Shown: positions 11,096 to 63,954, counted from the whole stretch's first letter. The stretch is 63,954 bases of DNA, filler included, from Stramenopiles sp. TOSAG23-6 (GCA_900128565.1; 4 parts of 4 records of this genome joined end to end with filler, not necessarily neighbours in it), one strand, 5' to 3'. The notes: generated by a model not told the origin, from the letters alone. Made by a program: numbers and translations.

Positions 11096-14000
11096 TCATA
11101 CCTCAAACCCATTCCTTTCAGATATTTTTTGTCTTTTGGGGGTCTTTTTAGGTTGAATTTGATCTGAAAAATTTGGCTTAAATCCAATACGTTTTAAATT
11201 TTCCCACCAATTTATTCGAGCATACCATAAAGTACATTTCCTCTGTAATTCTGGAGAACGCTCTTTATATGGAATACTACCTTGAGCATCACCAAGTAGC
11301 ACAGGGAATAATTTTGATTTTTCATATTTTGGCTCATTGACAATATTGACGCCGATAATTGCTTCTGCNTGATCTAATAATTCCCACTCCTCTGAGCTTG
11401 GAAATCCTGTCGCACCTTTAGCAAGACGTTGAATATTTACTGGTNTCCCATGTCGCAAAGCCGTTACGTATTGTGAAAAACAATGTCAAATTCGAAATTC
11501 GTTACGAATGAAATTTGGTAAAAAAAAATACAATTTAAATAACTAAGCACAACGTACAATATATGACCAACTACAGTATTCGTTTTAATCATACTTTTCA
11601 TTGCAATACTTTCAACATGTTCTCCAGATTGAAATGCTAAATAACTCACTTCCCAATTATGAAGATTTCCATTTTTTTTTCGCTTATATATCGCATGTTT
11701 CCATGGTTTTTTCGGTACGAGTTCAATGGGAAGTTTTAAAGTTCTCGATCTTTTTTTTGTTACCCATCCATTATTTGAATTTTCCTGTCCCATTCCTAAA
11801 CCAAATTCTTTCAACATACTTTGTAATAATTGAGCTAATTTTTCAACACCTGTAATGCGCACACCCATGGTACGTAATGCATCCACTGATGTAGGTTGAC
11901 AGTAAGCTATTTGCTTCACCACATGATCCGGAATGACCGACACAGGAGCCATATGTAATTCAATCGCTCGTTCATTACGCCAATTGTACACTCTCTGGAT
12001 AAACTCTTTCAGATCTTTAACATATTTTGCAGCATTCATATCTCCCTCCATAGCCTTTTTTTCATATAACTGAATTTTTCGAAACCATTTTTTATGTGAA
12101 TTTGTTACAGGGCCCTCAAAACCAGCATCTTGTTCACTCTTTGGTATTTCATTTATATCTACACCTGCATTTTTTAATTCATTTTGAAGCTTTTNGATTT
12201 TTTCTGCTGCTGCCGCCTCATAGACGCGAATACTTTGTGGAACGGGCAACATGCATTGTGAGAAAATATTTTTTTTTTGGTTAAAACAAATTATATGAAA
12301 AAAATCGAAATTGAAAAAAAAAAAATTAATTTTAAATTGAAATGAATGATGAAAACAAACATAATCGATTCATTAGTTTTGATATATTTTTGACCTTTAC
12401 TTGTTAGAGAATACACATCATATGTGTTTGTATATGTAGTACCATAAATTTGTTTTGAAATTGTCTTTCTTTGTATATATTTTCCATTAAGTAACTCTGG
12501 GAGCAAACAAATTAGAAATTCAACCGATGAATGTTTCGATGGTAAATTCGATCTTTTTGTATCATTTTTGATACACTGTTTCAATCTTGTCTTTGGTAGA
12601 CTAGTGTTTTGAAGATTTTTCAAAACAATTCTTGATTCATCACCAAAGTTACGACAAAGATCATCTGCATGTATTTTGGAAAAATATTTCAAATCAAAAA
12701 AAAATTGTTAGGTACAAAATTTCGTACGAAACAAAAATTCATTTTTAAAAAAAAAAAAAAAAACATACATATTTCTCCTGGAATATACAATTATCACAAG
12801 TACCACACCTATTACCAAATGTAGGATTTTCTCCAAAATAATGCAATAAAAATCGACGTCGGCATCCTTTTGAATCACTTGTAAATGTACGTAAAGCATT
12901 TGTGCTTTTTGCTATTATTTTTTGAACGGCGACAGACTTCCCTCGGGTATAAAAGTCATTACTATACTTAGTAAAATCTGAATCTTTATATAATAAAAGA
13001 CATTCTGCAGTGAAACCATCTCGACCAGCACGACCGATTTGTTGGAAATATGCTTCAACTGTTTGTGGTGGTCCATGTATTGTGAAAAATATTTTACATT
13101 GAAATGTTTTATTAGGTACAAAAGTTCGTATGAAAAAAAAAAATATATATATATATATATATTCAAGTGTTTAAAACTAAAACGTCCATAATGATAAATT
13201 CTACGAATATCAGGTTTGTCAATACCCATACCAAACGCTAACGTTGCAGTCACTACTTGAACAGCACCTGAAAGAAACTTTTGGTGAGTGTCTTCTCGAG
13301 CATTTTTACTCATCTTACCGTGATACGACATACATTTAAACCCTAACCCTAACCTTGAAAAAGCTTTCGATAAACAAGACTGAATTTCATCCACTTCAGC
13401 TGTTGTGGGTGCATAAATGATGGTCGATCCAATTGCCATTTTATTAGAAGAAAGAATCGTATCTAGAAGAATCTGAAGATCAGAGTGAAGGCCATTTTTG
13501 CCTTTTTGTTTGACTGATATTTTTAAGTTAGAACGATCAAATGAATTAATACTCACTTTTACACTTTTTGGGTTCATTCCTAAAACCCTAATGATATCAC
13601 GCTGGACATTTGGAACTGCCGTAGCTGTAAGCGCCATCAGAGGGACATTTGGTATTGACTGGCGAAATTTGCCAAGGGCCATAAAATCTTTTCTAAAGTC
13701 ATGCCCCCATTCGCTCACACAATGAGCTTCATCAACTGCCAATAGTCCCAATTTACCACGTTGAGACAGCATTTGCAGACGAGAAAGAACGTTCCCCGAC
13801 AGCAGCTTCTCTGGAGTCAAGAAAACGACCTTGAAGACACCAGACAAAGCACGTTCGACAGTATAATCATGTTGTGCAGATCCAAGAAAACAAGCCAATG
13901 GTTCTTTTAAAACAGACCCAATGGTATTATTCATATTAATTACTTGATCCTGCATGAGACTGATGAGAGGGGAAACTACTATAGATATCATACCAGACTG

Positions 14001-38604: not shown

Positions 38605-38835
<231 letters not shown>

Positions 38836-40955: not shown

Positions 40956-41065
40956 ATTTAGTATTTATTGTTATTTTCTAATGATTTATACTTATGTATA
41001 AATAAAAGAATCTGTCTTTGCATTGCTTAAATTTTGTTTAATAAAAACTTAGTTATATTCTAAAT

Positions 41066-42313: not shown

Positions 42314-42317
42314 ATTT

Positions 42318-43616: not shown

Positions 43617-43622
43617 TATTTT

Positions 43623-44006: not shown

Positions 44007-44009
44007 AAT

Positions 44010-44312: not shown

Positions 44313-44451
44313 TTAAATTTTTTGTATTAGGTTTATTATATAAATCATTTTCAAAACGTTGGAATTTTTTAAAATTGTTTATTTTCAAAAATGATATTGA
44401 ACCGTTAGTGAATAGAATTTTTTTTAAAAATTTATTATTAAATTTTTTCAT
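44302..44451 (-). CDS. rpl31: Short ORF, probable ribosomal protein L31
   Basis: 49 aa MKKFNNKFLKKILFTNGSIS...ENDLYNKP filling the tatC-rps14 gap. Confidence 0.55.
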   Translation of the reverse strand: MKKFNNKFLKKILFTNGSISFLKINNFKKFQRFENDLYNKPNTKNLNEK

Positions 44452-45163: not shown

Positions 45164-45165
45164 AT

Positions 45166-45741
45166 TTATATATTATTATTATTTCAACTTGAAAGTGAGT
45201 TGAATATTCTAAATTCTTGTGCAAATTCATTTTTTTCAAAACATACTCGCTTGATCAAATCATTATACCTTGCTGAAAGGAAACCACTTAAAGGAAAATC
45301 TTTTCGAAAAGGGTGTCCAGTAAAACCGTAATCTGTTAAAATTCGCCTTAAATCTTTATGTTTCGTAAAATTTATACCATACAAATCAAAAATTTCTCTT
45401 TCTAATCAATTACTTGATTTAAATATTTCTGAAATTGTTTGTATTGTAGAAAGTTCACTTAAGGTTGTTTTAACTCGAATTTTTGTATTAAAATTAAAAC
45501 TTGTTAATTGTAAAACTAATTCAAAACGGTTTTTTTATTCAGGGTAGTCTACACATGTATAGTCATTCACCACTCTAAATAGAGCTAATGCAAATAATTT
45601 GAGAAATTGAATAAAGTGGATAAAGCTATCTTTAAACACTTTAAAAACTAATTCACCTGTTCTTGTAAAGGCGACGGTTATTATAGAAAATCTTAAAACA
45701 TTTACTAAAGAAGCGCTGTAATTTTTAAAAACAGTATGCAT
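45166..45741 (-). CDS. nad9: NADH dehydrogenase subunit 9, with one in-frame TAA at 45535-45537
   Basis: [39 protein letters not shown]. Confidence 0.9.
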
Positions 45742-45742
45742 T

Positions 45743-46117
45743 TTATTTAAATTTAGAACTTAAAGTTAAAATTTTTTAATATTTTTTTTGCTTTAATTCT
45801 TTAGGTAAAACACCAAAAACTCTATTCCCAATAAAATTCTTCTTTTTAGTTAAGAGTATACAATTATTTGCCCCAAAATAAAAAGAATTACTTTGATTTC
45901 GTGTTTTATTTCTTTTGGTTTGTGTAATTAAACCTAAACATATTTCTTTTTTTTTTACTTTTATATTACCTTTTTTACGTAACTTTTTTACAGAAACAAC
46001 AATAAGGTCACCTATTGTTCCGTAACTGTGGTTAGCTTTACCTAAGATTTTGATGCATTCAACGGATTTAGCACCTGAATTATCTGAAATATTTAATAAA
46101 GTTCCTGGTTGTATCAT
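45743..46117 (-). CDS. rpl14: Ribosomal protein L14, with in-frame TAA at 45776-45778
   Basis: DNSGAK, GDLIVVSVK, GNRVFG; conserved tail KILTLS lies after the first TAA. Confidence 0.9.
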
Positions 46118-46118
46118 T

Positions 46119-46634
46119 TTACTTTATAAGTATGTTATGTATTTTAAAAAAAAATAAATTTTCTATTATATTGTTATTAGATAATAAAAAATCAATTTTT
46201 AGGTTTTTCAATAGTAGAAAGTGTTCAAATTCACTTTCAAGTTCAGTAAATATAGAAATATCTTCTATATTACAACTGTATAAGTTATTAGTTTTATTGG
46301 GGTTTAATCCTTTAAAAAATTGTATTTGTGGTAAATATATATGTAAAAATTTATTAAAAAAATCATTTAAATCTTTTTTAATTAAAGATGTAGAACATCC
46401 AGTAATTTTGGGTTTTAAACTTTTATTTTTATTTTTTGTTTCTTTTTGTAAAACAGGTTTTGTGTTTGTTATTAATTTTAGTGCTACCAATGCTGGTAAT
46501 GTAGTTTTCCCATTTTTAATATCAAATTTAAAATCAATTCTATTTAAATTTGGTATTTCTTTTGGGTGTTTATAACTAAATTTTTCTAGATATAATATAC
46601 GAATTCGTTGGTTAAAAAAATCTATGTTATCCAT
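46119..46634 (-). CDS. rpl5: Ribosomal protein L5
   Basis: IPNLNRI, LITNTKP, GCSTSL, IFTELE; next to rpl14. Confidence 0.85.
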   Translation of the reverse strand: MDNIDFFNQRIRILYLEKFSYKHPKEIPNLNRIDFKFDIKNGKTTLPALVALKLITNTKPVLQKETKNKNKSLKPKITGCSTSLIKKDLNDFFNKFLHIYLPQIQFFKGLNPNKTNNLYSCNIEDISIFTELESEFEHFLLLKNLKIDFLLSNNNIIENLFFFKIHNILIK

Positions 46635-46697
46635 GTATTGTATTTAAGTTTTTCTTTATTGTTGTATTTCTAAGTTCTAAATTATAAAAAAAATTAA

Positions 46698-47003
46698 TTA
46701 AAATCTTATAATCATTGAATTTACTGCTATATTATTACGTATTCTATAAAACATTACAACAAGTCCTAAACCTATAGCAGATTCTGCTGCTCCTAAAGTT
46801 AAAAAATGTAATGAAAATAGTTGTCCTAAAATATCATCTAAAAACCTTGAATATATTATAAAGTTATAATTAATGCTTAAAAGCATTAATTCAATAGATA
46901 TGAAAATAATTATTATAGATGTTCTATTTAAAATTATACCTAAAAAAGAAATTGTTAAAAGTGAAATTGAGATTATTAAATACTTAGTTAAACTTATAGG
47001 CAT
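46698..47003 (-). CDS. nad4L: NADH dehydrogenase subunit 4L
   Basis: SIELMLL, GQLFSL, AAESAIGL. Confidence 0.95.
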   Translation of the reverse strand: MPISLTKYLIISISLLTISFLGIILNRTSIIIIFISIELMLLSINYNFIIYSRFLDDILGQLFSLHFLTLGAAESAIGLGLVVMFYRIRNNIAVNSMIIRF

Positions 47004-47011
47004 TTTAAAAA

Positions 47012-48019
47012 TTAAAGGTAAAAAATATTATATAAACTATCAAATCCTATTAGGATCCCCGCGATAAAAAACAACCATCCTAAAGTTAAAGGTACAAATA
47101 CTTTTCAACCTAAATACATTAGTTGGTCATAACGGAATCTTGGTAGCATTGCTCGGGCAAGTATAAATAATGAAGCAAAAAATAAAATTTTTAAACTAAA
47201 TCAGAAAGGTCCAGGTATAATATTTAAAAAGTCTAAAGGTGCAAATCAACCTCCTAAAAAGAAAATAGAGATAACCCCACACATTGTTAAAATATTACTA
47301 TATTCACCTAAAAAAAACAAAGCAAACCCCATAGCGGAATATTCAACACTATAACCTGAAACTAACTCAGCTTCAGCTTCTGGTAGATCAAAAGGGTGCC
47401 GGTTAGTTTCAGCTAAAGCTGAAACAAAAAATACCAAAAACATTGGGAATAGGGGTAAAACATACCATACTTGTTTTTGTGCGAAGACTATATCTGTTAA
47501 GTTTAATGAACCTGCACATAAAAAAACTGTTAATACAGTAAAACTTATAGCAATTTCATAAGAAATCATTTGTGCTGCAGAACGTAATGCCCCTAAAAAA
47601 GCATATTTTGAATTACTAGATCACCCTGCCATAATTATTGTATATACACTTAAAGATGATATAGCAAAAAAATAAAGTACACCTAAATTTAAATTAGCTA
47701 TAACCGCATTGTTACCAAAAGGGATTACAACTCAGGCAAGTAGTGCTAGTATAAATGTAAAGATTGGTGAAAGGACAAAAATAATAGGGTTACTAGAACT
47801 AGGTATGATTGTTTCTTTTAATATAAGTTTAACACCATCAGCAATAGCTTGTAATAACCCAAAAAAACCTATAACATTAGGTCCTCGACGTCGTTGTACA
47901 GAAGACATTAATTTTCTTTCTAATAAAGTAAAAAATGCTACAGTAACTAATAAAAGAATTATTAAAATAAGGCTTTTTAAGATAATTGAAATAACAAAAA
48001 GTGTCAGTTTTGATAGCAT
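47012..48019 (-). CDS. nad1: NADH dehydrogenase subunit 1
   Basis: ERK...[40 protein letters not shown]=Trp. Confidence 0.97.
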
Positions 48020-48035
48020 CAAAATATTTTTTGTA

Positions 48036-50090
48036 TTAGTTGAAATTAATTTTAGTAGTGCTTAATGAGGTTTTATTCATAATTCTTGAATTTTTGGTAA
48101 GAATATCTGTTACATAAAAATCTCGTATGTTTGGCTTAGATACATAATTATTTTTATAATTTGTTTCTAAATTAGAATTGATTAGTATTGTTTCTTTAAC
48201 ATATTTCTTTGTCAATAAAAATTTATAATTATTTTCAAAAGTTTTCATTAAAGTTTTTTGATTTGTTATTTTAACATCATAGTTTAAATATTGTAGAAGC
48301 GCTGTAAAAATTTTTCAATCTTGTCGTGATTCTTTTTTCCCTGCATGGGCTTTTTTAGTTTTTTGCAGAAAACTATTAATATTTAAAAAATGGTTTTCTG
48401 ATTCAGTAGTTGTAAGGCTTGGTAAAAAAAGATTAATGTTATTAATATCATTAGTACCATGAGAACCTATATAAATTACTTTAGTTTTTTTATTTAAAAG
48501 GTTTAAATTTATTTTATCTGTATTTAGTAAAAATACAGTATGAAGTTGTTGTAACTTTTTTAAATTAATAGATTGTAAACCTAATTCACAAGCATTAATA
48601 AGGCCCATGTTTGTTGTTAGGTGGTTTATTGCATTATAATCTTTGGTATACAATGAATTTAGATTTCTTTTTAAAATAGAATAAGTTGCATTTGTATTTT
48701 TACTTACTTCATTATTACCAAAAATTATTATTGGTGTTTTAGCTTTTTGTAGGTTTTTAACAGCTAAATTAGATCCTTCTAAAAATTGGTAATTATTATT
48801 TAAATTTAAACCTAAAGACTTTGATTCATAACCAAGGTTTTGGAATGGTCCAGTATAGTAAACTTTCATACGACCATTATAAACATTTTTACGTAATCTT
48901 ATTTGTAAGGCAGATGCCTCTTTTTTAGGGTTAGCTTCTATAAGGTAACAAAAATCAGTATATTCTAATAATTTTAATGTTGTATTAAATTTATAATTAA
49001 AAGGTAAATTTAAATTATATTGTGACTTTGTAATAAGCTCATCATTAAATAATAATGAACTTCCATTTAAATTTAAAAATGTTTTTGCAATCAATAAAGT
49101 TTCTAAACTTGTAAATTTACTTGAAACAATACCTATTTTATTATTTGCTGCCTTTGTAGACAGTTTTATAAACTTAAAAACATCTTTTCAACTTTTTGTT
49201 TCAAAGGTGTTATTAACTGTTTTATATTTTGGAAAAACTAGTCTTTGGATATTTAAACTATCATAATAAAACCGTGTTTTATCAGAAATTCATTCTTCAT
49301 TTATAGAATTATTAAAACAAGGTGTTATATTGATTATTTCATTACCTTTTAAATTTAAAGCAACGTTGGACCCAACGCTATCTAAAACATCAATACTTTC
49401 AACTTGTTCAAGTTCTCATAAACGTCCTTGAAATGCTGATGGTTTTGCTGTTAGAGCACCTAATAATTGAAAGTTTATTTTTTTTGTAAAATTACTTACA
49501 GGGCATAAATCTATAACATTTCCAGAAAGTTCAGATTGAAGTATACTTTTAATGTATGAACCAATTTCAGTTTTTTTACCTCGACCGGTAGTACCTAATG
49601 TAGTTACACCTGCAATTTCATGAGCGAAACGTATACATCTAGTACAATGGATACAACGTGTCATAATAGTTTTTATTAACGGACCACCTATCTTATCTTC
49701 AACACTTCTTTTTTCATTGTAAAACCTACCGCTATCAGAACTATAAAAAAATGATTGATCTTGTAAGTCACATTGCCCACCTTGATCACAAATAGGACAA
49801 TCTAACGGGTGATTTAATAATAAGAATTCCATAACGGCTTCTCTTGCTTTTTGAACCGTTGGTGTATTTGTAAAAATTTTAATACCTTCCATTACTGGAA
49901 AGGTACATCCTGTTACAGGTTTTGGAGACTTTTCTATTTCAACTAAACACATTCGACAATTTCCTGCTATTAATAAACGTTCGTGGAAACAAAAACGGGG
50001 TAGGTCGATACCTACTTGAGTACAAGCTTGCAATACTGTTGTATTGTTAGAAACTTTAAACGAAATACCATCAATTTCAATATTTACCAT
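48036..50090 (-). CDS. nad11: NADH dehydrogenase subunit 11, unsplit (TGA=Trp)
   Basis: [51 protein letters not shown]; one frame throughout. Confidence 0.95.
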
Positions 50091-50121
50091 TGATTTTTTA
50101 ATTTATATTATGGTTATTTTA

Positions 50122-50208
50122 CGGAAAGGGTGGGGTTCGAACCCACGAAGCAGCAATTGCTGCGTTAGTTTAGCAAACTAATACTTTAAACCACTCAGTC
50201 ACCTTTCC
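50122..50208 (-). tRNA. trnS: tRNA-Ser(GCT)
   Basis: Cloverleaf, long variable arm, anticodon loop TTGCTAA, GGTTCGAAC. Confidence 0.92.
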
Positions 50209-50210
50209 TT

Positions 50211-50283
50211 CGAGAACGACAGGACTTGAACCTGCACAAACCGGTTCGACAAACCGGTACTCTACCAATTAAGCTACGCTCCC
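50211..50283 (-). tRNA. trnD: tRNA-Asp(GTC)
   Basis: Anticodon arm CCGGT-TTGTCGA-ACCGG; GGTTCAAGTCC. Confidence 0.92.
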
Positions 50284-50686
50284 TTTTTCATAAATAAAGA
50301 ATATTAATAAAGAAGTTACTAATATATTCAAATCTAAGAAATAAAAAATAAAATCATTAAAACCTACAAAAGTTATTAAACATACTACACTAATTAACAT
50401 TACAAAAGTGTAATGGTATATTAGCCCAGTTTGTAGTTTTAATGCGTTAAAATGTTTATTATATAATAAGCTAGATAATCCAAAAGGTCCAAAAAATTCA
50501 ATAAAACCACGATCTACTAGTTTATAAGTACCATTATACCCTATTTTTAGTGTAAATTGGTTAATAGTTTTATTATATAATTTATCTATAAATCACTTTC
50601 GATTAAAAAAATTATAAAATTGTAGACCAAAAGATGTTATCTTAAATTCATAAATATTTTTAATTTTTAATTGATAATATAAAATA
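50269..50686 (-). CDS. nad5: NADH dehydrogenase subunit 5, 3' part
   Basis: NRKWFIDKLYN, DRGFIEFFGP, LQTGLIYHY. Confidence 0.92.
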
Positions 50687-50786
50687 NNNNNNNNNNNNNN
50701 NNNNNNNNNNNNNNNNNNNNNNNNNNNNNNTTAATTAATTAANNNNNNNNNNNNNNNNNNNNNNNNNNNNNNNNNNNNNNNNNNNN
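50687..50786. other. Artificial contig linker
   Basis: N-run, TTAATTAATTAA, N-run. Confidence 0.99.
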
Positions 50787-51660: not shown

Positions 51661-52131
51661 TTTTTTTTTTTTTTTTTTTTTTAAAGGAAATTCCGCACAG
51701 TTATTCAACAAAAACGTTTACCGCAACTCACCAAAAAAAAAAAAAGATGATCTCTATACCGTCGTTGATGATTAATACAATGAATTATCCAAAGAGTTGA
51801 TGATGCTTCACTTTGGTCTATGTAGAATCGTAATCTGATGAAATATTTTGGTTGCTTTTGTGGTGCAGAAAAGAGCGCCCTTTGTTTTTTTGCTCTCACA
51901 CAGCAGTCGGTTATAATTTTTAAAAAACCCTAACCCTAGTAAATATAAGCGATCTAGATCCAATAATAAATATTTAACGGTTGTTCATTTTTCATTTGCG
52001 CAACGTATCCTATATGTAATAATAATAATCGATTATTAAAGAAGATCACTGTATTAAACCATTTTACTTCATCACGTACATACTACATTTTCACTACAGC
52101 TATATCAAAGTAAATTCATTCACTGTGCAGA

Positions 52132-55100
52132 ATGCTGTCTCATGAAATAGCATCAGGAACGAATAAAGAAGTTCAGCAGAAGACAAATGCTTTAAAGGAT
52201 AAAGTGAGTGTGAAAATTGTTGCTCAGAACACCAAAAATCGTAAACCTCAACTTTCAAAGACATCTCCAAATGATGTGCATGTTGAATATGGAAATTACG
52301 AAATGGATGAAAGACAGGAAGTTCAATCTGGGTGCTTTTTACTGTTTTTACTCATAATTATTTTGGTCACTTTTCTTTTAACGTGGTCAACATATTCAAT
52401 CATTGAGTATGCAGATGGAAACGTGAATGATACATACATTTTTGGGTCGAGTGCACCTGCTTTACTCCTAATTATACTGGGTATCATGATCTACATTCTC
52501 CGAATTCGTAATAAGTCTTCGAAAAACGTCATTAATAATACAACATTATGTATTATTATGATACTATTAATGAGTGGCGCAGCTGTTGGAGGTTATTTTT
52601 CGATTAAAGAATTGTATGGTAAAAATTCATTTTGTGAGTATATGCGAAGCTTTCAAGTGAACATAAATCCCAATGAAATTTGTCAACGAAAACAACTGCT
52701 TGAAGAAATGGATAATAACATCAACGCCCATAATTCAAGTAATACAGAATGTTCAGCTAGTCAATCTAAATTAAGTCATCAAACGGAACTTGAAGTATTG
52801 CACTCACTTGGACTTCATGATGCTGAAGGTCTGTACAAACAATTTTTTGGCGGTTACTCTAGTACCCTGTCGTTGACCAATTATGATGCATGTACAAAAA
52901 TCGATTGGTCCGATGGAACAAAGAATGCAGAATGTACAGCTAAAGTTTCTCAAGCTGTAACACCTCCAAAACACCAAGGCGATTGCTCATCATCTTGGGC
53001 AATGGTGACAGTTGCACTTATTGAATCAGCGTATGTCATCCAAAGAGACGTAAAAGATGTCGTACCTTTTTCCGTTGAACATATTGTCAATTGTCAACCT
53101 ACTGTAAACGTAAATGGTAAAGATTATCATGGTTGTCATGGTGGGAATGCCGTATTTGCTTTACAGCAACTGAAATCTGAGGGTATCTGCACTGCTGAAA
53201 AGTATCCTTATTCATACTATAATCCAGCTGAAGTAACGAAATGCCTTGACAGCTCAAACTGTGATAAGTCTGTTGAAGCTCTTGAAACTAAAGCATTTGA
53301 GTATGAAACAGGAAAGGCGTGCAAAAATGAAATCACAGAGAAATGTACAGATGTGAGTGTAAAAAACATTTATAAAGTGGCAGAAGATGGGACAATGACA
53401 GAGGCTCAAATAAAAAAGGTACTTGCAAACAAAGGTCCAATTGCTATTGGGCTAAGTATAGACATTGCAAATGTGGGCGATTTTATGAAGAAACATACCT
53501 GCATCATTACTCCAACATGTGGCAATGTCACAGAATCCGGTTTAATTGTTGGTTACGATGAAACTGATTCTAATAACAAATATTGGAAAGTAAAAATGTC
53601 ATGGGGTGAGGAAATTGGTACTTTCTTGTCATACATTTTCATTTTTTTTTTCTTTTACCAAAAATAGTACCTAACAAATTGTATTACTGTAAAACATATC
53701 TTTTTTCATAATAGGTGAAGGTGGATTCATAAAACTCAAAATGGGAAGTGAAAAGTGTTTATATGATGGGTATTTTGTGGAAATAAATGATATTTCAGTA
53801 AAAACTCCGCCACCTACGGATCCAGTAAAAAAGCAACAAGTGGAGGCTGCGATAAAAACGGCAAGCGAAGGACACAAAAGTGTATTTTTTTTTCATGCAA
53901 ACATGAATGATTTTAGGTTTTAAATGATCATTTTTTATTTATTTTAAATATGTATGACATATTGTAAAGATTATTTACAGTATTTTCGGCTTATCTTCAA
54001 AAGATGAATGATTTTTGCTTTTACATGATAAAAGTTGTTATTCATTTGCAATACTATTTTGACATATTGTGTAGATTATTGCAAGTATTTTGGTTTTTCT
54101 TGCAAACATGAATTAGGGTTAGCTATTAAATGATAACAATGATTTTTTATATACAATATAATTGACATATTGTACAGATTATTGGATGTATTTTTGCTCT
54201 TCTTGCAAACATGAGTTAGCGTTAGCTATTAAATTATAATAGTATTTATTTATTTGAAGTACTCTTGACATATTGTGCAGATTATTTGCTGTATTTTTGT
54301 TTTTTCTTGCAATGATGGATGATGATTACTTTAGAATGATGAAAATGTTGATTTATTTCAAAAACCATTGACATATTGTATAGATTATTGAATGTATTTT
54401 TTTTTATTCAAAAGATGAATGATGATTACTTTTAAATGATAATAATGTTGATTTATTTCATATACTATTGACATATTGTACAGATTACTTGCTGCATTTT
54501 ATTTTTCTTGCAAAGATTATTAATGTTAGATTTTAAAATAACGATGTAAATTCATTTGAAGTACTATTGACATATTGTACAAATTATTGGTTATATTTTT
54601 GTTTTTCTTGCAATGATGGATGATGATTACTTTTACATGATAATAATGTTGATTTATTTCATATACTATTGACATATTGTACAGATTATTTGCTGTATTT
54701 TTGTTTTTCTTGCAATGATGGATGATGATTACTTTTAAATGATAAAAATGTTGATTTATTTCAAAAACCATTGGCATATTGTATAGATTATTGTTTGTAT
54801 TTTTGTTTTTCTTGTAATGACGGATGATGATTGCTTTTAAATGATAATAGTGTTGATTTATTTCATAAACTATTGACATATTGTACAATTTTTTTAACAT
54901 ATTTTTGTTTTTCTTGCAATGATGGATGATGATTACTTTTAAATGATAATAATGTTGATTTATTTCAAAAACCATTGACATATTGTATAGATTATTTGCT
55001 GTATTTTTGTTTTTCTTGCAATGACGGATGATGATTACTTTTAAATGATAATAATGTTGATTTATTTCAAATACTATTGACATATTGTATAGATTATTGT

Positions 55101-58100
55101 GCGTATTTTTGTTTTATTCAAAAGATGAATAATGTTNGCTTTTAGATGATAACAATATTTTATCATTTACAATATCTATGACATATTGTACAGATTATAG
55201 GATGTATTTTTGATTTTAATCAAAAGATGAATGATTTAGCTTTGAAATGATAATAATGCTTATTCATGTACAATATCCATGACATATTGTACAAATTATT
55301 GAAGGTATTTTTGTTTTTCTTGCAAAGATAAATTATGCTAGATTTTCAATAATATCAATGTTGATTCATTTTAGATACTTTTGATATATTGTACATATGA
55401 TTTTGTGTATCGTTGCTTTTCTTGCAAATATGAATAATGTATGCTTTGAAGAAACAACGTTGATTCATTTAAACTGCTAGTAACATATTGTACAAATTAT
55501 TGAAGGTATTTTTGTTGTTATTCAAAAGATGAATTATATTTGGTTTTAAATGATATCAATGCTTATTGATTTGAAATACTAGTGACANATTATGTAGATA
55601 ATTGGCAGTATTTTTGGCTTTATGCAAAAGATGAATGATGTTTGATTTTAAATGATAATATTTTTTATTCATTTTAAATACTATTGACATATTGTAGAGA
55701 TTATTGAGCGTATTTTTGAATTTGTGGAAAAGATGAATGAAGTTTGATTTTAAATAATAATATGTTTTATTTGTTTAAATACTATTGACATATTGTACAG
55801 ATTATTGGCAGTATTTTTGGATTTATGGAAAAGATTGATGGCGTTAACATTTAAATGATAATTAAATGATGATTTATTTTAAATACTATTGATATATTGT
55901 ACAGATTATTGTGGGTATTTTTGTTTTTGTTGCAAAGATGAATATTGTTTGCATTTTATTGATAACAATGTTCATTCATTGAAAATATTATTGACATATT
56001 GTAGAGATTATTGTACGACAAATGGATAAATTTGGTATTTTTGTTTTTATTCAAAAGATGAATAATGTTTGCATTTATATGATACAATATTTATTTATTT
56101 CAAATACTAGTGACATATTGTAGAGATTATTGGCCGTATTTTTGTTTTTGTGGAAAAGATGAATAATGTTTGCTTTTATATGAAAAAAATGTTGATTTAT
56201 TTAAAATACTATTGACATATTGTACAGATTATTTCCAGTATTTTTGTTTTTCTTGCAAATTTGAATGATGTTTGCTTTTATATGAAAAAAATGTTTCTCA
56301 TTTCAAATACTATTGACATATTGTGTAGATTATTTCAAGTATTTTTGTCTTTATTCAAAAGATGAATAATGTTTGCTTTTATATGATAAAAATGTTTATT
56401 TATTTAAAATATTAGTGACATATTGTAGAGATTATTGTCTGTATTTTTGTTTTTATTCAAAAGGTTGAATGATGTTTGCTTTTTAATGATGAAAATGCTT
56501 ATCTATTTCATATACTATTGACATATTGTAGAGATTATGGACTGTATTTTTGTTTTTGATCAAAAGATGAATAATGTTTGCTTTTTAATGATACTAATAT
56601 TTATTTTGTATACTAGTGACATATTGTACATATTATTTAATGTATTTTTGTTTTTAATCAAAAGATGAATACTGTTTTCTTTCAAATTACACCAATGTTT
56701 AATCATTTCCAATACTGAGGACATATTGTAGACATTATTAGACGTATTTTTGTTTTTATTCAAAAGGTTGAATGATGTTTGCTTTTTAATGATGAAAATG
56801 CTTATCTATTTCATATACTATTGACATATTGTAGAGATTATGGACTGTATTTTTGTTTTTGATCAAAAGATGAATAATGTTTGCTTTTATCTGAAAAAAA
56901 ATGTATATTTATTTCAAACAATATTGACATATTGTATGGATTATTGGAAGTATTTTTGTTTTTATTCAAATGATGAATGATGTTTGCTTTTACATGATAA
57001 AAATATTTATTTATTTCATATACTATTGACGTATTGTAGACATTATTGTACGTATTTTTTTTTTATTCAAAAGATGAATACTGTTTAGGGTTAGAATGAT
57101 ATAAATGTTGATTCATTTCAAATACTATTGACATATTGTAGAGATTATTGATGGTATTTTTGTTTTTATTCAAAAGATGAATAATGTTTGCTTTTATATG
57201 ATGAAAATGTTGATTTATTTCATATACTATTGACATATTGTACAAAATATTGACAGTATTTCTGTTTTTATTCAAAAGATGAATAATGTTTGCCTTTATA
57301 TGATGAAAATGTTGATTTATTTAAAATATTAGTGACATATTGTATAGATTATTGCTTGTATTTTGTTTTTATTCAAAAGATGAATGGTGTTTGCTTTAGA
57401 ATGATATCAATGTTTATTTATTTTGTATACTATTGACATATTATACAGATTATTGGACGTATTTTTGTTTTTCTTGCAAATTTGAATGATTTTTGCTTTA
57501 GAATGATAAAAATGTTTATTTATTTCATATATTATTGACATATTGTAGACATTATTGCAAGTATTTTTGTTTTCTTGCAAAGATGAATTATTTTAACTTT
57601 TACTTGATAACAATGTTTATTCATTAAAAATACTATTGACATATTGTAGAGATTATTTCGAGTATTTTTGTTTTCATTCAAAAGATGAATGATGTTTGCG
57701 TTTTAATGATAAAACTGTTTATTCATTTCATACACTAGTGACATATTGTAGACATTATTGATCGTATTTTTCTTTTATTCAAAAGGTTGAATGGTGTTTG
57801 CTTTTTAATGATAAAATTGCTTATTTATTTTGTATACTATTGACATATTGTACAGATTATTTCGAGTATTTTTGTTTTTTTTCAAAAGATGAATGATGTT
57901 TGCTTTGAAATGATAAATATGTTGATTTATTTCATATACTAGTGACATATTGTAGGCATTATTGAACGTATTTTTGGTTTTATTCAAAAGGTTGAATGAT
58001 GTTTGCTTTTGCATGATGAAAATATTTATTTATTTCAAATACTATTGACATATTGTACAGATTATTGCAAGTATCTTTGTTTGTATTCAAAAGATGAATG

Positions 58101-61100
58101 GTTTTAGCATTTTAATGATAATAATGATTATTTATTTCAAATACTATTCACATATTGTACAGATTATTGCCTGTATTTTGGTTTTATTCAAAAGATGAAT
58201 GATGTTTGCTTTAGAATGATATCAATGTTAATTTATTTAAAATACTATTGGAATATTTTACAGAGTATTGTATGTATTTTTGTTTTTATTCAAAAGATGA
58301 ATGATGTTTGCTTTTGCATGATGAAAATGTTTATTTATTTCAAATACTATTAACATATTGTATATATTATTGGCTGTATTTTTGTTTTATTCAAAAGATG
58401 AATGATGTTTACTTTAGAATGATATCAATGTTTATTTATTGAAAATAGTATTGAAAATATTGTAGAGATTATTGACCGTATTTTTGTTTTTATTCAAAAG
58501 ATGAATGATTTTAGCTTTTAAATGATAAAAATGTTGATTTAATTTGTATACTATTGACATATTGTACAGATTATTTAATGTATTTGTTTTTATTTAAAAG
58601 ATGAATGATTTTAGCTTTTAAATGATAAAAATGTTGATTTATTTTGTATACTATTGACATATTGTAGATATTATTTGAAGTATTTGTTTTTATTTAAAAG
58701 ATGAATGATTTTAGCTTTTAAATGATAAAAATGTTGATTTATTTCAAATACTGTTGACATATTGAATAGATTATTGACTGTATTTTTGTTTTTATTCAAA
58801 CAAAGAAAGATGTTTGATTTTGACATGATAAAAATGTTTATTTATTTCAAATACTGTTGACATATTGTAGAGATTATTAAAAGTATTTTTGTTTTTGTTC
58901 AAAAAATGAATACTTCTAGTTTTTAAATGATGTCAATGACTGTTTATTTCATATACTATTGACGTATTGTAGACATTATTGTTTGTATTTTTCTTTTATT
59001 CAAAAGGTTGAATGGTGTTTGCTTTTTAATGATAAACTGTTTATTTATTTATTTTGTATACTAGTGACATATTGTAGAGATTACTGGAAGTATTTTGTTT
59101 TTATTTGAAAGATTAATAATTTTAGGTTTAAATGATAACAATTGTTATTAATTTAAAATAGAATTGACATATTGTACAGATAATGCACCATATTTTGGTT
59201 TTTCTTACAAAGATGAATAATGTTTGCTTTTCAATGATAATAATGTTTATTCATTGAAAATACTATTGATATATTCTGAAGATTTTTTTGTGTATTGTTG
59301 TCTTTCTTGCTCTGGCAGATACTGATTTTTACTAAATATCAATATGTATTTATTTCATACACAAGTTACATATTGTAGAGATTATTGGCTGTATTTTTGT
59401 TTTTCTTACTATGATAAATGATGTTGGCTTTTGAATACAAAGAATGTGTTTTCATTTCCAATACAATTGACATATTGTACAGATTACTTGATGTATTTTT
59501 ACATTGGTGTAAAGATGAATAATATCAACTTTTAAATGATAAACATGTTCATTTATTTCAAATACTATTGACATATAGTTCAAATTTTTGTTTGTATTTT
59601 TACTCTTCTTGAAAAGATTAGTGATGGTTGCTTTTATATGATATTAATGTTTATTCATTTGTAAATACTATTGGCATATTCTCCAGATTATTGCGAGTAT
59701 TTTTATTCTTCTTGCATAGATGAATGATGGTTGGGTTTAATTGATAGTAATGATCATTTATTAATAATACTATTGACATATTGTAGACATTATTGACTGT
59801 ATTTTTGGTTTTATTCAAACAATGAATGATGTTTGCGCTTAAAGGATCATAATTATTATTTATTAATAATATTATTGACATATTCTAAAGATAATTTGAA
59901 GTATTGGGATTTTCCCTGCAGAAATGATTCATGTTTGCTTTGAAAATAACAATGTTTATTTATTTACAAAACTATTGACATATTCTAAAGATAATTGTGT
60001 GTATTTTTAATGTTGTGCCTATTCCAATATTGTTGGCTTTGAAAATAAAAACGGTTATTCATTTCAAATACTATTTGCATATTGTACAGGTCATTTGAAG
60101 TATTTTTGGTTTTCCTGCAAATATGAATATTATAACTTTTTCAATGATATCAATGTTTATTTATGTCAAATACGTTTGACATATTGTACAGATTATTGCG
60201 GGTAAATTTGTAGTTCTTACAAAGATAAATGATGCTAACTTTTGAAATAATGTTTATTTATGTCAAATACATTTGAGATATTGTATAGAGTATTGGCAGT
60301 ATTTTGGTAGTTCTTGCAGAGATGAATGATTTTAACTTTTAAAAAAAGGTTGATTCATTCGAAATACTATTGACATATTGTATAAATTATTGAAAGTATT
60401 TTTGAATTTTTTCCGAAGATGAATGATGTTCAATTTTTAAAGAATGTTTGTTTGTCCATTTCAAATACATTTGACATATTGTATGGATTATTGGCCGTAT
60501 TTTTGTTTTTATTCAAACGATGAGTGATGTTTTCTTTAGAATGATCACAATGTTTATTTATTTCAAATACAATTGATATATTGTATAGATTATTGACCGT
60601 ATTTTTGTTTTTCTTGAAAAGATGAATAATGTTTGCTTTAAAGTGATGAAACATTGATTCATTTTAGATACTATTGACATATTTTATAGATTATTGTTTG
60701 TATTTTTGTCGTTCTTGCAATGATGAATGATTTCACCTTAAATGATGGCAATATTTATTCATTTGAAATACGATTGACATATTGTTCAGATTTTTGTGCG
60801 TATTTTTGTTTTTCTGCATATATATGAATGGATTGTCCTTGTAAAGATTTAATTATATATTCATTTACAAAACAAGTGACATATTGTGTAGATTATTTCG
60901 AGTATTTTTGTTTTTTTGCATAGATGAATGATTTGTCCTTGTAAAGATTACATTATATATTCATTTCAAATACTATTGACATATTGTAGAGATTATTGTC
61001 AGTATTTTGTTTCTATTCAAAGGATGAATGGTGTTTGCTTTAAAATGATATCAATATTTATTTATTTCATATACTATTGACATATTGTAGACATTATTGA

Positions 61101-63943
61101 CTGTATTTTTGTTTTTATTCAAAAGATGAATGGTTTGAGCATTTTAATGATAATTAAATGATTATTTATTTCAAATACTATTGACATATTGTAGAGATTA
61201 TTGGCGGTATTTTTGTTTTTATTCAAAAGATGAAAAGTTTTTGCTTTAGAATGATAAAAATGTTGATTTATTTTGTATACTAGTGACATATTGTATAGAT
61301 TATTGGACGTATTTTTATTTTTATTCAAAAGATGAATGATGTTTGCTTTAGAATGATAAAACTGTTTATTTATTCAAAATACTGTTGACATATTGTACAG
61401 ATTATTGAAAGTATTTTTGTTTGTATTCAAAAGATGAATTATGTTTGCTTTTATATGATAATAATGTTTATTTAGTTAAAATATTAGTGACATATTGTAC
61501 ATATTATTGGGCGTATTTTTGTTTTTATTCCAAAGATGAATAATGTTTGCTTTTTAATGATAACAATGTTTATTTATTTTGTATACTAGTGACATATTGT
61601 ACATATTATTTGATGTATTTTTGTTTTTATTCAAAAGATGAATGATGTTTGCTTTAGAATGATATCAATGATTGTTCATTTAAAATACTATTGACATATT
61701 GTATAGATTATTGGATGTATTTTTATTTTTATTCAAACGATGAATAATGTTTAGTATGATAACAATGTTTATTTATTTCAAATAATGCTGACATATTGTA
61801 CAGATTATTTGTGGTATTTTGATTTTATTCAAAATATGAATAATGTTTGCTTTTAAATAATGACAGTGTTTATTCATTCAAAATATTACTGACATATTGA
61901 ATAGATTATTGAGAGTATCTTTGTTGTTTATGAAAAGATACCAAATTTATAGTTTGTAAAGATAATGTTATTTATGCATGTATAATACTATTGACATATT
62001 AGAAACATTATTATTGGGAGTATTTTGTGCTTTCTCTCAAAAATGGATGATCTTTGCTCGAAATAAAGTCAATATTGATTCATTTGAAAGATTGTTAATG
62101 TATTGTGCAAATTATGTTTAGTAATTTTGTTTCTCTTGGAAAGATAAATTATCTAAGCTTTCAAAAAAAATGTTTATTCATTTCAAATACTAGTGACATA
62201 TTGTATAGATTATTCAAGGTATGTTTTGTTTTTCTTTAAAAGATGAATAATGGTAGGTTTGAAGTGATAACAATATTTATTCATTTAAAATACAATTGAA
62301 ATATTGTATAGATTTTGATGTGTATTTTTGTTTTTGTTGTAAAGATGAATGATGATAGGTTTGAAGTGATAAAAANAATTATTCATTTGAAACACTAGTG
62401 ATATATTGTATAGATTATTTGNTGTATTTTTNTTTTTCTTNAAAAGATAACAATGTTTCCTTTTAAATGATAACAATATTTATTTCTTTCACTAGTGATA
62501 TATTGTTGAGATTATTGTTGGTACCTTTGCCTTTCTTGCAAAGTTTTGATTATTTTTTCTTTGGTATGATAAGAATAGTTATTTATTTGAAACACTATTG
62601 ATATATTGTATAGATTATTGGATGTATTTCTGTTTTTTTCAAAAAGAATGAATAATTTTTGTTTTTAAATGATATCAATGATTATTCATTTCAAATACTA
62701 GGGACATATTGTATAGATTATTTGACGTATTGGAATGTTCCTTGCAGAAAAAAATTGTGTTTACTTTGAAAATAACAATGTGTATCTATTTACAATACTA
62801 TTGACATATTCCAAAGATAATTGTGTGTATTTTTTTTTTGTGCTCCTTTTAATACTGTTGGTTTTGAAAATTAAAATGGTTATTTATTTAAAATACTTTT
62901 GACATATTGTATAGATTCTTGACAGTATTTTTGCTTTTCTTCAAAAGATGAATACTGTTGACTTTACAATGATAAAAATATTTTTTCATTTTAAATAGTA
63001 TTGACATATTGTAGAGATTATTGCAAGTATTTTTGTTTTTATTCAAAAGATGAATGATGTCTGCTTTTTTACATGAGAAAAATGTTTATTCATTTAAAAT
63101 AGTTTTGACATATTGTAGAGATTACTGTTGGTATTTTTGTTTTTATTCAAAAGATGTATTATGTGTGCTTTAGAATGATATCAATGTTTATTTATTTCAA
63201 ATACTATTAAACTATTGTAGGCATTATTGGGCGTATTTTTGTTTTTATTCAAAAGATGAATAATTTTAGTTTTTAAATGATATCAATGATTGTTCATTTC
63301 AAATACTATTGACATATTTTACAGAATATTGTGTGTATTTTAGTTTTGGTACAAATATGAGTGATGTTTACTTTTGAAAAGCAAAATAAGTCATTGAAAA
63401 TCTCTTTTGACATATTGCACAGATTATTGGTTGTATTTTTTTTTTATTCAAAAGGTTGAATGGTGTTTTCTTTGAAATGATAATAATGTTTATTTATTTC
63501 AAATACAATTGACATATTGTAGAGATTATTGGTTGTATTTGTGTTTTTATTCAAAAGATGAATAATGTTTGCTTTTATATGATAAAACTGTTTATTCATT
63601 CAAAATACTATTGACATATTGTAGAGAGTATTGAACGTATTTTTATTTTTATTCAAAAGATGAATACTGTTTGCTTTAGAATGATATCAATGTTTATTTA
63701 TTTCAAATACTAAGTGACATATTGTAGACATTATTGGGTGTATTTTATTTTTATTCAAAAGATGAATAATGTTTAGGGTTAGAATGATATAAATGTTTAT
63801 TTATTTCAAATACTACTGACATATTGTAGACATTATTGGCGGTATTTTTGTTTTTATTCAAAAGATGAATGATGTTTGCTTTTAGATGCTAAAAATGTTT
63901 ATTTATTTCCTACACCAGTGACATATTTTACAGATTATTGAAT
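52132..63943 (+). CDS. Membrane-anchored papain-family (C1A) pseudoprotease with micro-exon-encoded C-terminal extension; runs off window
   Basis: Exons 52132-53617 and 53715-53881 are well supported (QGDCSSSWA, SVEHIVNC, GCHGG, IVGY, YWKVKMSWG, GEGGFIKL). The 99 micro-exons from 53977 on are inferred. Confidence 0.75.
53618..53714 (+). other. Canonical GT-AG intron carrying the family-A core
   Basis: GTACTT...GTACCTAAC...CATAATAG; restores SWGEEIGEGGF. Confidence 0.88.
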
Positions 63944-63954
63944 GTATTTTCAAT
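53882..63954 (+). repeat. Array of ~99 ~102-bp units: ~99-nt conserved intron-like unit (family B) plus 3-nt variable exon
   Basis: Consensus GTATTTTTGTTTTTATTCAAAAGATGAAT...TACTATTGACATATTGTAsAGATTATTk followed by NNN; the repeat itself is certain, the intron reading is inferred. Confidence 0.9.

What the first reader, a model, noticed from the sequence alone, without database searches (positions are those of the whole stretch)
53882..63954. A 10-kb 'satellite' is a gene written one codon at a time: ~99 introns separating 3-nt exons
Seen: each ~102-bp unit is conserved except for exactly 3 nt between ...GATTATT(G/T) and GTATTTTT. The first GT follows codon AGT (53879-53881) of the papain-like ORF in phase 0. 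Triplets read by hand in order (53977 ACA, 54082 CAA, 54185 GAT, 54288 GCT ... 63941 AAT), with the single 21-nt spacer at 56014-56034, give TQDANAVAFNACDKCKASAW-YDKWINL-APQSTNDTEYMTLDQRIRNQPYATNETKFETCADFRTECERAKATFCRSTADKGDDVRGLKCXLDDCTQLGCVVNGAN. None of the 98 triplets is a stop (about 1% expected for uniform random triplets). They are much more GC-rich than the repeat, and the peptide has 8 Cys plus NDT/NET sequons, fitting an extracellular domain. Inference: an intron after nearly every codon, ~97% intron over 10 kb. I know of no described gene like this.
Basis: partly seen in the sequence, partly recalled or inferred. Interest (0 to 1): 0.98.

Follow-up and report, generated by a model that had tools for sequence, protein, structure and literature searches.

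The report
Gene tail written one codon per exon?
Behind a protease-like gene of an unnamed marine protist lies a 10-kb run of about 99 look-alike intron-like units separated by three variable letters that behave statistically like codons of one reading frame, which would be an unheard-of gene layout, but no RNA evidence could be obtained to show that the pieces are really joined.

Summary
From 53882 to the window end there are 99 head-to-tail units of 94-102 nt. Each starts GTATTT and ends ...GATTATT(G/T). They are separated by 98 slots of 3 nt and one of 21 nt. The three slot columns are the most variable in the unit and vary independently of their flanks.

The triplets behave like codons. 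None of 97 defined triplets is a stop (P 0.002-0.007). They fit the window's own codon usage best in frame. Position 3 is AT-enriched (p 0.0025) and Cys is over-represented (p 0.003). The frame continues from the upstream exon.

The units end in TG or TT, not AG. That is less damaging than it looks: another intron family in this genome is demonstrably not GT-AG.

Nothing shows splicing. RNA contigs did not cover the junction. No relative of the peptide and no second array was found.

Verdict: a codon-per-exon gene tail is the best reading, at about 0.55. A non-coding repeat or a dead relic remain open.

The parts
52132..53626 (+). Exon 1 of the papain-like gene. It has an N-terminal part with hydrophobic stretches, then a Peptidase_C1 domain.
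   Evidence: Open frame. Pfam PF00112, E 2.6e-29, residues 273-496. Aligned to papain-family structures.
53627..53716 (+). Ordinary GT...AG intron, phase 1, with a GTACCTAAC branch-like motif.
   Evidence: Read from the sequence. The frames of the two exons join as ...EEIG|EGGF. The motif is hit at 53659.
53717..53881 (+). Exon 2: the end of the papain fold plus a Pro-rich linker. It ends on a complete codon AGT directly before the first GT of the array.
   Evidence: If read through, the frame stops at 53921-53923.
53882..63954 (+). Array of 99 complete intron-like units plus the start of a 100th. It runs off the window end.
53882..53976 (+). First unit (95 nt). It begins with GT directly after coding sequence, not with a partial unit.
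53977..53979 (+). First variable triplet (ACA). 97 further 3-nt slots follow at about 102-nt steps.
   Evidence: One search lists all positions.
56014..56034 (+). The only longer slot, 21 nt, open in the same frame (YDKWINL).
63941..63943 (+). Last triplet in the window (AAT). It is followed at 63944 by the donor of the next unit.
13072..13189 (-). Comparison piece, not part of the array: an intron of the dispersed repeat-intron family in a RecQ-like gene. Its borders lie inside a direct repeat ATGGA and cannot be GT-AG.

Best explanation
The 10-kb array is the 3' part of the papain-like gene. It is a chain of at least 99 short introns (94-102 nt) that are copies of one another. Each carries its own 5' signal (GTATTTTT) and a conserved block near its 3' end (TATTGACATATTGTA.AGATTATT). 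That block plausibly holds the branch site and whatever marks the 3' cut.

Between successive introns lies one codon, and once seven codons. Removing the introns one after another would join these codons to the exon ending at 53881. Each removal recreates a 5' site for the next, as in recursive splicing. The product would be a tail of at least 105 residues, rich in cysteine, with NDT and NET sequons, on a membrane-anchored, probably catalytically dead protease-like protein.

Shown: the anatomy, the codon-like statistics of the triplets, and the existence of non-GT-AG introns elsewhere in this genome.

Inferred: that splicing happens, its order, the exact exon borders (3 nt, or 6 nt with a constant GT+N Val codon), and the origin. 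The likely origin is copying of one intron within its own gene, or duplication of intron-plus-codon units followed by fast change of the codons.
For: (1) Zero stops in 97 defined triplets. P = 0.00165 with bases shuffled and 0.0071 with column composition kept. The concatenated 315 nt has 0 stops in frame 0, against 4 and 17 in the other frames and 2, 1 and 7 on the reverse strand.

(2) Log-likelihood under the in-frame codon table of 19 ORFs of the same window is -558.9 bits. Uniform gives -582.0, the other frames and antisense -576.8 to -618.4, and the array's own intron trinucleotides -641.6. 0 of 20000 base shuffles reach the observed value.

(3) Synonymous codon choice: observed -139.4. 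Simulation from the window's own usage gives -127.1 +- 7.5, and uniform choice gives -176.6 +- 9.1, with 0 of 5000 reaching the observed value.

(4) GC is 30/97 at position 3 against 97/194 at positions 1+2, Fisher p = 0.0025. Cys codons are 8 against 2.5 expected, p = 0.0034, and there is no TGA.

(5) The first GT follows a complete codon of the upstream exon. The only non-3 slot is 21 nt and open.

(6) Of 338 exon-border combinations, only 5 are stop-free, and all keep the triplet in codon phase. The GT-AG readings give stops.

(7) Conservation is concentrated where splicing signals sit. 96 of 100 donors are GT and 86 of 100 are GTATTT. The last ~25 nt are nearly invariant. The window's other introns begin GTAYGTTTT or GTACTTTC.

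(8) Triplets are uncoupled from their flanks. Slots whose two flanking introns are >= 90% identical still differ at 1.89 of 3 positions (n = 9). Those at 85-90% differ at 2.15 (n = 230), against 2.13-2.23 for the less similar pairs.

(9) Non-AG 3' ends are not disqualifying here. The RecQ-like gene's exon ends at ...IYHYG, which aligns to WRN G341. The next piece resumes at P, aligned to residue 342. This leaves six possible border pairs, none GT-AG.

(10) 97 of 99 units carry an in-frame stop if read through, so the frame can only be kept by removing them.
Against: - No RNA evidence. In four runs laid on 52000-54300, no contig covers 53848-53924, no joint was reported, and one polyA-library contig even keeps part of the ordinary intron.
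- The 3' ends are TG (67), TT (23) or other (9, only 1 AG) of 99. This is a splice site not known from other organisms, and it differs from the ends of this genome's dispersed intron family (...ACAT).
- Given column composition and no stops, the codon-table fit alone is not significant (P = 0.12).
- Observed synonymous usage sits at the 5.7th percentile of what the genome's usage predicts.
- The 12 most variable intron columns are also ~50% GC, so GC richness proves nothing.
- The papain fold is already complete in exon 2, so a stop at 53923 would still give a whole domain (reading).
- No protein in two large libraries contains exon 2 or a close relative of the gene. The array peptide has no significant match among the 151 proteins fetched (best E 0.018-0.06).
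- No second array was found in the collections scanned.
- All statistical tests are post hoc on a pattern chosen by eye.
Confidence: 0.55

Rival explanations
1. A non-coding tandem repeat (satellite or repetitive 3' UTR) that arose by amplification of an intron-like 102-bp unit behind the gene. The gene ends at the stop at 53923. The three hypervariable columns reflect an unknown mutational hot spot or constraint, and their codon-like look is chance.
For: The array is head-to-tail with a regular period. The protease fold is complete before the array. No transcript evidence for joining exists. Other single columns are almost as variable and equally GC-rich. There is no AG acceptor. Unit k-mers stand at high depth in DNA and RNA libraries, as expected of any repeat.
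Against: - It needs several independent coincidences: no stops (P 0.002-0.007), a position-3 AT bias (p 0.0025) and a Cys excess (p 0.003), phase continuity with the exon, and a 21-nt open exception.
- Slot length is fixed at 3 in 94-97 of 98 slots, unlike a repair or slippage hot spot.
- Neighbouring units are hardly more alike than distant ones (0.79 against 0.77), which is unlike usual satellite homogenisation.
- Triplets do not co-vary with near-identical flanks.
Confidence: 0.22
2. The triplets are or were codons, but the run is no longer, or only partly, productive. One possibility is an exon overrun by copies of one intron and now decaying. Another is a region normally removed as a whole, or heavily skipped, so that little or none of the 105-residue tail is made.
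For: The same codon-like statistics as the best explanation would persist for some time in a relic. With about 12% divergence of units from their consensus (23% pairwise), I estimate about a one-in-four chance of seeing no stop even without selection. That is my own rough calculation, not a tool result. The host protein has lost all three catalytic residues. 3 of 100 donors are AT and 1 is GC, and some units are degenerate, e.g. 54896, 59898 and 62724.
Against: Splice-signal blocks are still strongly conserved in nearly all 99 units (92 matches of the 22-nt 3' block with at most 3 mismatches). That argues for ongoing selection on the units. The complete absence of stops is easier to explain with selection.
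Confidence: 0.15
3. Something else: an array of intron-hosted small RNAs (snoRNA-host type), a repetitive protein read unspliced on the minus strand, or an assembly or amplification artefact.
For: ATGATG- and TTGA-like motifs in the unit recall C and D boxes. A 195-residue repetitive frame is open on the minus strand at 54526-55113. The window is a chain of contigs joined by N linkers and has 290 N.
Against: - RUGAUGA is present in 18 of 99 units, CUGA in 7, and both in order in 0.
- There is no Rfam match at gathering score, and only chance-level hits at E up to 5 in 56900-58700.
- RNAalifold predicts 0 conserved pairs in 48 units.
- The minus-strand frame is open over only 5.7 of 99 units. 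The other frames of 50 aa or more are at most 85 aa, and unit lengths are a multiple of 3 in only 52 of 99.
- Unit-like contigs occur in an independent seawater DNA run and in RNA libraries, so the repeat is not an artefact of one assembly.
Confidence: 0.05

Closest known systems
Micro-exon genes (MEGs) of Schistosoma
   Same: Coding sequence is built from very short symmetric exons whose lengths are multiples of 3 and which encode secreted or surface proteins. The abstract of bioRxiv 10.1101/2023.06.21.545858 (seen only as the start of the abstract in the listing) gives exon sizes of 3-81 bp.
   Different: MEG introns are long (up to 5 kb by that abstract) and are not described there as copies of one another. 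Here about 99 introns of ~99 nt are homologous, almost every exon is exactly 3 nt, and the 3' ends lack AG.
Same-gene intron duplications and introner-like elements (fungi), introners (algae and others)
   Same: Near-identical introns multiplied within a genome. PMC3609843 (passages read) describes 'same gene duplications'. Half of them lack duplicated flanking exon and are interpreted as intron transposition within one transcript.
   Different: At most 16 such introns per fungal species are reported there, they are not in tandem, and they have canonical sites. Here there are 99 in one gene, 3 nt apart. The unit was not found outside the array in this window. It lacks the terminal inverted and direct repeats of the window's dispersed family.
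Recursive splicing at ratchet points (Drosophila)
   Same: Stepwise removal of intron segments, in which each step recreates a 5' splice site next to the exon already joined. Seen only as starts of abstracts in the listing: bioRxiv 10.1101/006163 and PMC8605326.
   Different: Ratchet points are juxtaposed AG|GT with a zero-length exon and add nothing to the mRNA. Here 3 nt would be kept at each step, and there is no AG.
Non-canonical introns of Amoebophrya, euglenids and some diplonemids
   Same: These are genomes in which most introns escape GT-AG. They often have short direct repeats over the borders and inverted repeats at the ends (PMC7789003 and PMC12621601, passages read). The window's dispersed intron family looks like this: ends ATGTAY...RTACAT, with border repeats ATGGA, GAACTT and ATG.
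   Different: The array units show no end-to-end pairing (0 conserved pairs) and no border repeat. They keep a GT donor. The named relatives of the window's RecQ-like protein are from a haptophyte and diatoms, not from euglenozoans or dinoflagellates.
Satellite DNA
   Same: A head-to-tail array of ~100-bp AT-rich units over more than 10 kb.
   Different: It starts exactly at an exon's end in phase 0. It carries a 3-column block that behaves like codons. It shows almost no local homogenisation.

Membership tests
U2-type GT-AG spliceosomal intron | GT (or GC) at the 5' end with an extended donor consensus | tested here: met
   96 of 100 donors are GT, 1 is GC and 3 are AT. 86 of 100 are GTATTT. 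This resembles the window's other introns, GTAYGTTTT and GTACTTTC.
U2-type GT-AG spliceosomal intron | AG at the 3' end | tested here: not met
   1 of 99 units ends in AG; TG 67, TT 23. 14 of 99 have no AG at all in the last 18 nt. Using the internal AG gives 10- or 12-nt exons with stops.
U2-type GT-AG spliceosomal intron | Branch-site motif 10-40 nt before the 3' end | tested here: inconclusive
   A conserved TTGAC (YTNAY-like) lies 19 nt before the end, inside the best conserved block. The window's other introns use GTACCTAAC. The pairing to U2 is my own reading and was not tested.
Introner / introner-like element | Many near-identical copies in unrelated genes | tested here: not met
   All 92 matches of the 3' block lie in the array, and none in the other ~45 kb of nuclear sequence. 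The whole genome is not held, so this is limited to the window.
Introner / introner-like element | Terminal inverted repeats and target-site duplications (DNA-transposon type) | tested here: not met
   There is no border repeat and no end pairing in the array units. Both are present in the dispersed family. The array consensus is not significantly similar to 7 dispersed copies (z -0.5 to 2.4).
Same-gene intron duplication (non-segmental) | Homologous introns in one gene without duplication of the flanking exon | tested here: met
   Introns are 77% identical on average. The triplets between them are unrelated even where the flanks are >= 85% identical. This holds only if the units are introns, which is not shown.
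Micro-exon gene | Run of symmetric exons (multiples of 3) forming most of a coding region | tested here: inconclusive
   98 slots of 3 nt and one of 21 nt, all open in one frame. Their inclusion in mRNA is not shown.
Satellite DNA (non-coding) | Tandem units homogenised locally, with no reading frame | tested here: inconclusive
   Tandem: yes. Local homogenisation is weak: 0.792 at lag 1 against 0.770 overall. A reading frame through the slots exists.
Intron-hosted C/D snoRNA array | C box RUGAUGA and D box CUGA in order, with a terminal stem | tested here: not met
   0 of 99 units have both boxes in order. RNAalifold finds 0 conserved pairs. There is no Rfam match.
Structure-dependent non-conventional intron (euglenid type) | [quoted passage not shown] | tested here: not met
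   RNAalifold on 48 of 96 units, flanking triplets included, predicts 0 pairs.

The most novel reading that the evidence does not exclude
A protein segment of more than 100 residues is encoded one codon per exon. About 99 homologous ~99-nt introns with GT...T(G/T) borders are removed one after another by a spliceosome that does not need AG. The layout arose because a single intron copied itself 3 nt downstream again and again along its own gene. Since every exon is one phase-0 codon, any subset could be skipped without breaking the frame. The locus could therefore produce a very large family of cysteine-rich surface tails from one gene.
Probability: 0.3. Interest if true: 0.97.

Novelty: new variant of a known kind. 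Interest (0 to 1): 0.8.

Why it matters
If the triplets are really joined, this would be the most intron-dense coding stretch known: about 97% intron, with one intron per codon. It would test several things at once.

- How short an exon a spliceosome can handle repeatedly.
- How 3' sites are chosen without AG.
- How introns multiply inside a gene.

It would also show that gene finders and protein databases can miss whole domains in little-known marine protists. If it is instead a non-coding repeat, the hypervariable, codon-like 3-nt block still needs an explanation. It would then stand as a warning about reading frames seen in repeats.

Tried and rejected
RNA evidence
- The look-up of sequencing runs listed 9 runs, 8 of which hold part of the stretch. 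I laid 4 (X3 DNA; X4, X7, X8 RNA) on 52000-54300.
- No contig covers 53848-53924 and no joints were reported, so nothing can be said about splicing.
- I did not lay the whole array, because the tool turns away long repeats.

Homologues
- The 498-aa exon found 1 weak hit (E 2.2e-4) among 5841 candidates.
- Exon 2 searched against longer proteins found 0.
- A full HMMER scan gave 2843 hits at E <= 0.001, the best at 87 bits, all ordinary papain relatives.
- The array peptide, computed inside a script, had no significant match among the 151 fetched proteins.
- I did not send the joined peptide or joined mRNA to any search, fold or family tool. Its homology outside those 151 proteins is untested.

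Other arrays
- A 28-nt pattern that matches 42 of 99 units found 4 single matches in metagenome contigs. L001 was read, and L002-L004 were scanned for tandem repeats; none has the array.
- It found 2 single matches in bacterial MAGs, which I did not examine further, and 0 in viral contigs.
- The whole genome is not held.
- Earlier notes of this scan hold nothing on this genome or on look-alikes.

Rejected readings
- Structured RNA or ribozyme.
- snoRNA host.
- Rfam families.
- Minus-strand repeat protein.
- Canonical GT-AG exons of 10 or 12 nt.
- Common origin with the dispersed intron family.

Other
- The bacterial promoter/terminator scan is not meaningful for a eukaryote.
- GC richness of the triplets was dropped as an argument.
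- The literature searches found no description of a run of single-codon exons. This covers only the held library, and no supplementary files were consulted.


Full report
WHAT IS THERE

The window is not one molecule. It is a chain of contigs joined by N...TTAATTAATTAA...N linkers (seen; 290 N in all).

- 1-33.9 kb holds nuclear genes with long open frames.
- 34.3-50.6 kb is a mitochondrial contig with large and small rRNA, two tRNAs and a NuoG/Nad11-like frame.
- The last contig, from about 50.74 kb to the window end, holds the finding.

On that contig the + strand carries a papain-like gene.

- Exon 52132-53626 has Peptidase_C1, E 2.6e-29.
- An ordinary GT...AG intron lies at 53627-53716.
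- Exon 53717-53881 completes the fold and adds a Pro-rich stretch.

Directly after the complete codon AGT (53879-53881) the repeat begins with GT.

THE OBSERVATION

Tandem Repeats Finder reports one array at 53881-63950, period 102, 99.1 copies, 75% matches. No comparable array lies in the first 53.9 kb.

I located the slots from the two flanking motifs only. In 94 of 98 slots no other register fits as well. Only 54896 is truly ambiguous.

Unit (intron) lengths are 94-102 nt, and 99 nt in 45 of 99. In a MAFFT alignment of the 99 units, intron columns have a mean entropy of 0.67 bits. The three slot columns have 1.91, 1.93 and 1.87 bits. The most variable intron columns reach 1.81, 1.77 and 1.70.

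So the block is real and stands out. The statement that the rest is 'conserved' is too strong, since introns are 77% identical pairwise.

Conservation is concentrated at the first 8 nt (GTATTTTT) and the last ~25 nt (TTGACATATTGTA.AGATTATT). The 22-nt 3' block matches 92 times with at most 3 mismatches, always inside the array.

ARE THE TRIPLETS CODONS?

- None of the 97 defined triplets is TAA, TAG or TGA. P = 0.00165 if all 291 bases are shuffled and 0.0071 if each column keeps its composition.
- The concatenated 315 nt has 0 stops in frame 0, 4 and 17 in the other frames, and 2, 1 and 7 on the other strand.
- I built a codon table from 19 long ORFs of the same window (7789 codons). Under it the triplets score -558.9 bits in frame. 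Uniform gives -582.0, the out-of-frame or antisense tables -576.8 to -618.4, and the array's own intron trinucleotides -641.6.
- Position-specific composition mirrors real codons: G/A-rich first position and T/A-rich third. GC at position 3 is 30/97 against 97/194 at positions 1+2, p = 0.0025.
- Given the encoded residues, synonymous choice follows the genome's bias. Observed is -139.4, simulated from the genome's usage -127.1 +- 7.5, and simulated uniform -176.6 +- 9.1.
- Cys codons are 8 against 2.5 expected, p = 0.0034.

Caveats:
- Once column composition and absence of stops are granted, the codon-table fit adds little (P = 0.12).
- The observed synonymous score lies at the low edge of expectation (5.7th percentile).
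- GC richness is shared by the most variable intron columns.
- All tests were made after the pattern had been seen.

WHICH EXON BORDERS?

I tried 338 combinations that extend the exon 0-12 nt to the right and 0-25 nt to the left. Five give no stop. They are the bare triplet and four that add one or two constant codons (GT+G/T, GTA, GTA TTT). All keep the triplet in codon phase.

The GT-AG reading is not open. It would use the internal AG, which 85 of 99 units have somewhere in their last 18 nt.

In the 6-nt variant the variable last base of the unit would be the third position of a Val codon: GTG 69, GTT 21, GTA 3, GTC 2, ATT 3, GCG 1. I cannot exclude this X-Val-X-Val reading. I prefer the 3-nt reading because GTATTT matches the 5' consensus of the window's other introns.

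IS A NON-AG 3' END CREDIBLE IN THIS ORGANISM?

The window holds a dispersed family of ~90-120-nt introns that share GAAATTTYGTACCTAAC. There are 19 matches against 1.6 expected (sequences).

In a RecQ-like gene on the minus strand, the exon ends ...IYHYG, aligned to WRN 9mjs_A up to G341. The next open piece reads ...HGPPQTVEAYFQQIGRAGRDG, with G aligned to 341 and P to 342. The intervening sequence therefore lies within a direct repeat ATGGA (13189-13185 and 13076-13072). Its possible borders are AT-AC, TG-CA, GG-AT, GA-TG, AC-GG or CG-GA, never GT-AG.

Other copies show border repeats (ATG, AT, GAACTT) and ends ATGTAY...RTACAT. Such introns, with direct and inverted repeats and non-canonical borders, are documented with RNA-seq in Amoebophrya (PMC7789003, passages). 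They are also described in euglenids and some diplonemids (PMC12621601, passages).

So this genome removes introns without AG. That takes away the strongest a priori objection. The array units, however, are a different family: z = -0.5 to 2.4 against 7 dispersed copies. They have no end pairing (0 conserved pairs in 48 units) and different 3' ends (TG 67, TT 23 of 99).

HOW THE ARRAY EVOLVED

Identity between units hardly depends on distance: 0.792 at lag 1, 0.77 overall, with no higher-order diagonal. This star-like pattern suits a burst of copying, or strong selection toward a consensus, better than ordinary satellite turnover.

Triplets are uncoupled from their flanks. Slot pairs whose two flanking introns are >= 90% identical differ at 1.89 of 3 positions (n = 9, 2 identical). 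Pairs at 85-90% differ at 2.15 (n = 230). The background is 2.13-2.23.

Two histories fit. Either the introns were copied into a pre-existing frame, or intron-plus-codon units duplicated and the codons then changed much faster than the constrained introns. A few recent duplications that keep the codon are visible (GCT/GCT, ACT/ACT, GAC/GAT).

Copying of an intron within its own gene, without the flanking exon, is known on a small scale in fungi (PMC3609843, passages).

WHAT I COULD NOT SHOW

RNA:
- Eight public runs hold part of 52132-54300.
- In the four laid, exon 1 is covered in pieces. A polyA-library contig covers 53661-53797, including intron sequence.
- Unit-like short contigs occur in DNA (X3) and in one RNA library (X7).
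- Nothing covers 53848-53924, and no joint or informative loose end was reported.

Proteins:
- No close relative of the gene exists in the libraries.
- The joined peptide could only be compared locally with the 151 fetched proteins, without a significant hit.

DNA:
- No second array was found in the metagenome, genome or viral contig collections at the sensitivity of an exact 28-nt pattern.

REJECTED ALTERNATIVES

- C/D snoRNA host array: 0 of 99 units have both boxes in order.
- Known RNA families.
- A conserved RNA fold.
- A minus-strand repeat protein. A 195-residue frame is open over only 5.7 units where lengths happen to be 102. Elsewhere the frames are at most 85 aa.

VERDICT

The sequence facts are confirmed and are far from chance. 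The best explanation is that the array is a chain of homologous short introns, with the triplets as in-frame codons of a Cys-rich C-terminal tail (0.55). The other possibilities are a non-coding repeat with an unexplained codon-like block (0.22), a relic that is no longer productively spliced (0.15), and others (0.05).

My searches of the held literature found no described gene with a long run of single-codon exons. The nearest kinds are micro-exon genes, same-gene intron duplications and recursive splicing.

Noticed in passing
window 16930-17060, 33870-33930, 50600-50740 and other N runs: The window is a pseudomolecule: contigs joined by N...TTAATTAATTAA...N linkers. Contig ends often fall in the dispersed repeat-intron, so neighbouring pieces need not be linked in the genome.
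   Followed up: partly
window 34319-50600: A mitochondrial contig of 20-26% GC. It holds full-length large and small rRNA, tRNA-Ser and tRNA-Asp, a NuoG/Nad11-like frame, and ribosomal-protein-like and tatC-like frames. Whether it belongs to the same organism as the nuclear contigs is not shown.
   Followed up: partly
window 4-20, 6713, 7937, 9683, 10669, 12707, 13111, 16490, 17067, 21825, 50808, 51081 (motif positions): A dispersed family of ~90-120-nt introns sharing GAAATTTYGTACCTAAC. Their ends are ATGTAY...RTACAT, with short direct repeats over the borders. At least the copy in the RecQ-like gene (13072-13189, minus strand) cannot be GT-AG. It looks like a MITE-type introner with non-canonical splicing.
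   Followed up: partly
window 52900-53881: The papain-like domain seems to have lost all three catalytic residues. In the alignment to 1s4v_A, CSSSWA stands for CGSCWA, TESGL for LDHGV and KMSWG for KNSWG. It is probably a pseudo-protease. Three hydrophobic stretches precede the domain.
   Followed up: partly
window 54593-54691, 54899-54997, 59190-59288: The three units that begin with AT instead of GT all end in T rather than the usual G (T-ending overall 23 of 99, chance about 0.013). This could mean that the first and last intron nucleotides interact. In the 6-nt-exon reading it could instead mean that Ile (ATT) rather than Met replaces Val.
   Followed up: no
window 53996-54286 in runs X3 and X7: Short unit-like contigs stand at much higher depth than the single-copy exon both in a seawater DNA run (about 30-80 against 3-5) and in one metatranscriptome (up to 50 against 2.2). 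This may mean intron RNA or DNA carry-over; contig depths cannot decide.
   Followed up: no
window 54526-55113, minus strand: A 195-residue repetitive open frame (34-residue period) across 5.7 nearly identical 102-nt units. It is not continued in the rest of the array.
   Followed up: yes
window 51925-51940: A short CCCTAA CCCTA telomere-like motif lies upstream of the papain-like gene.
   Followed up: no
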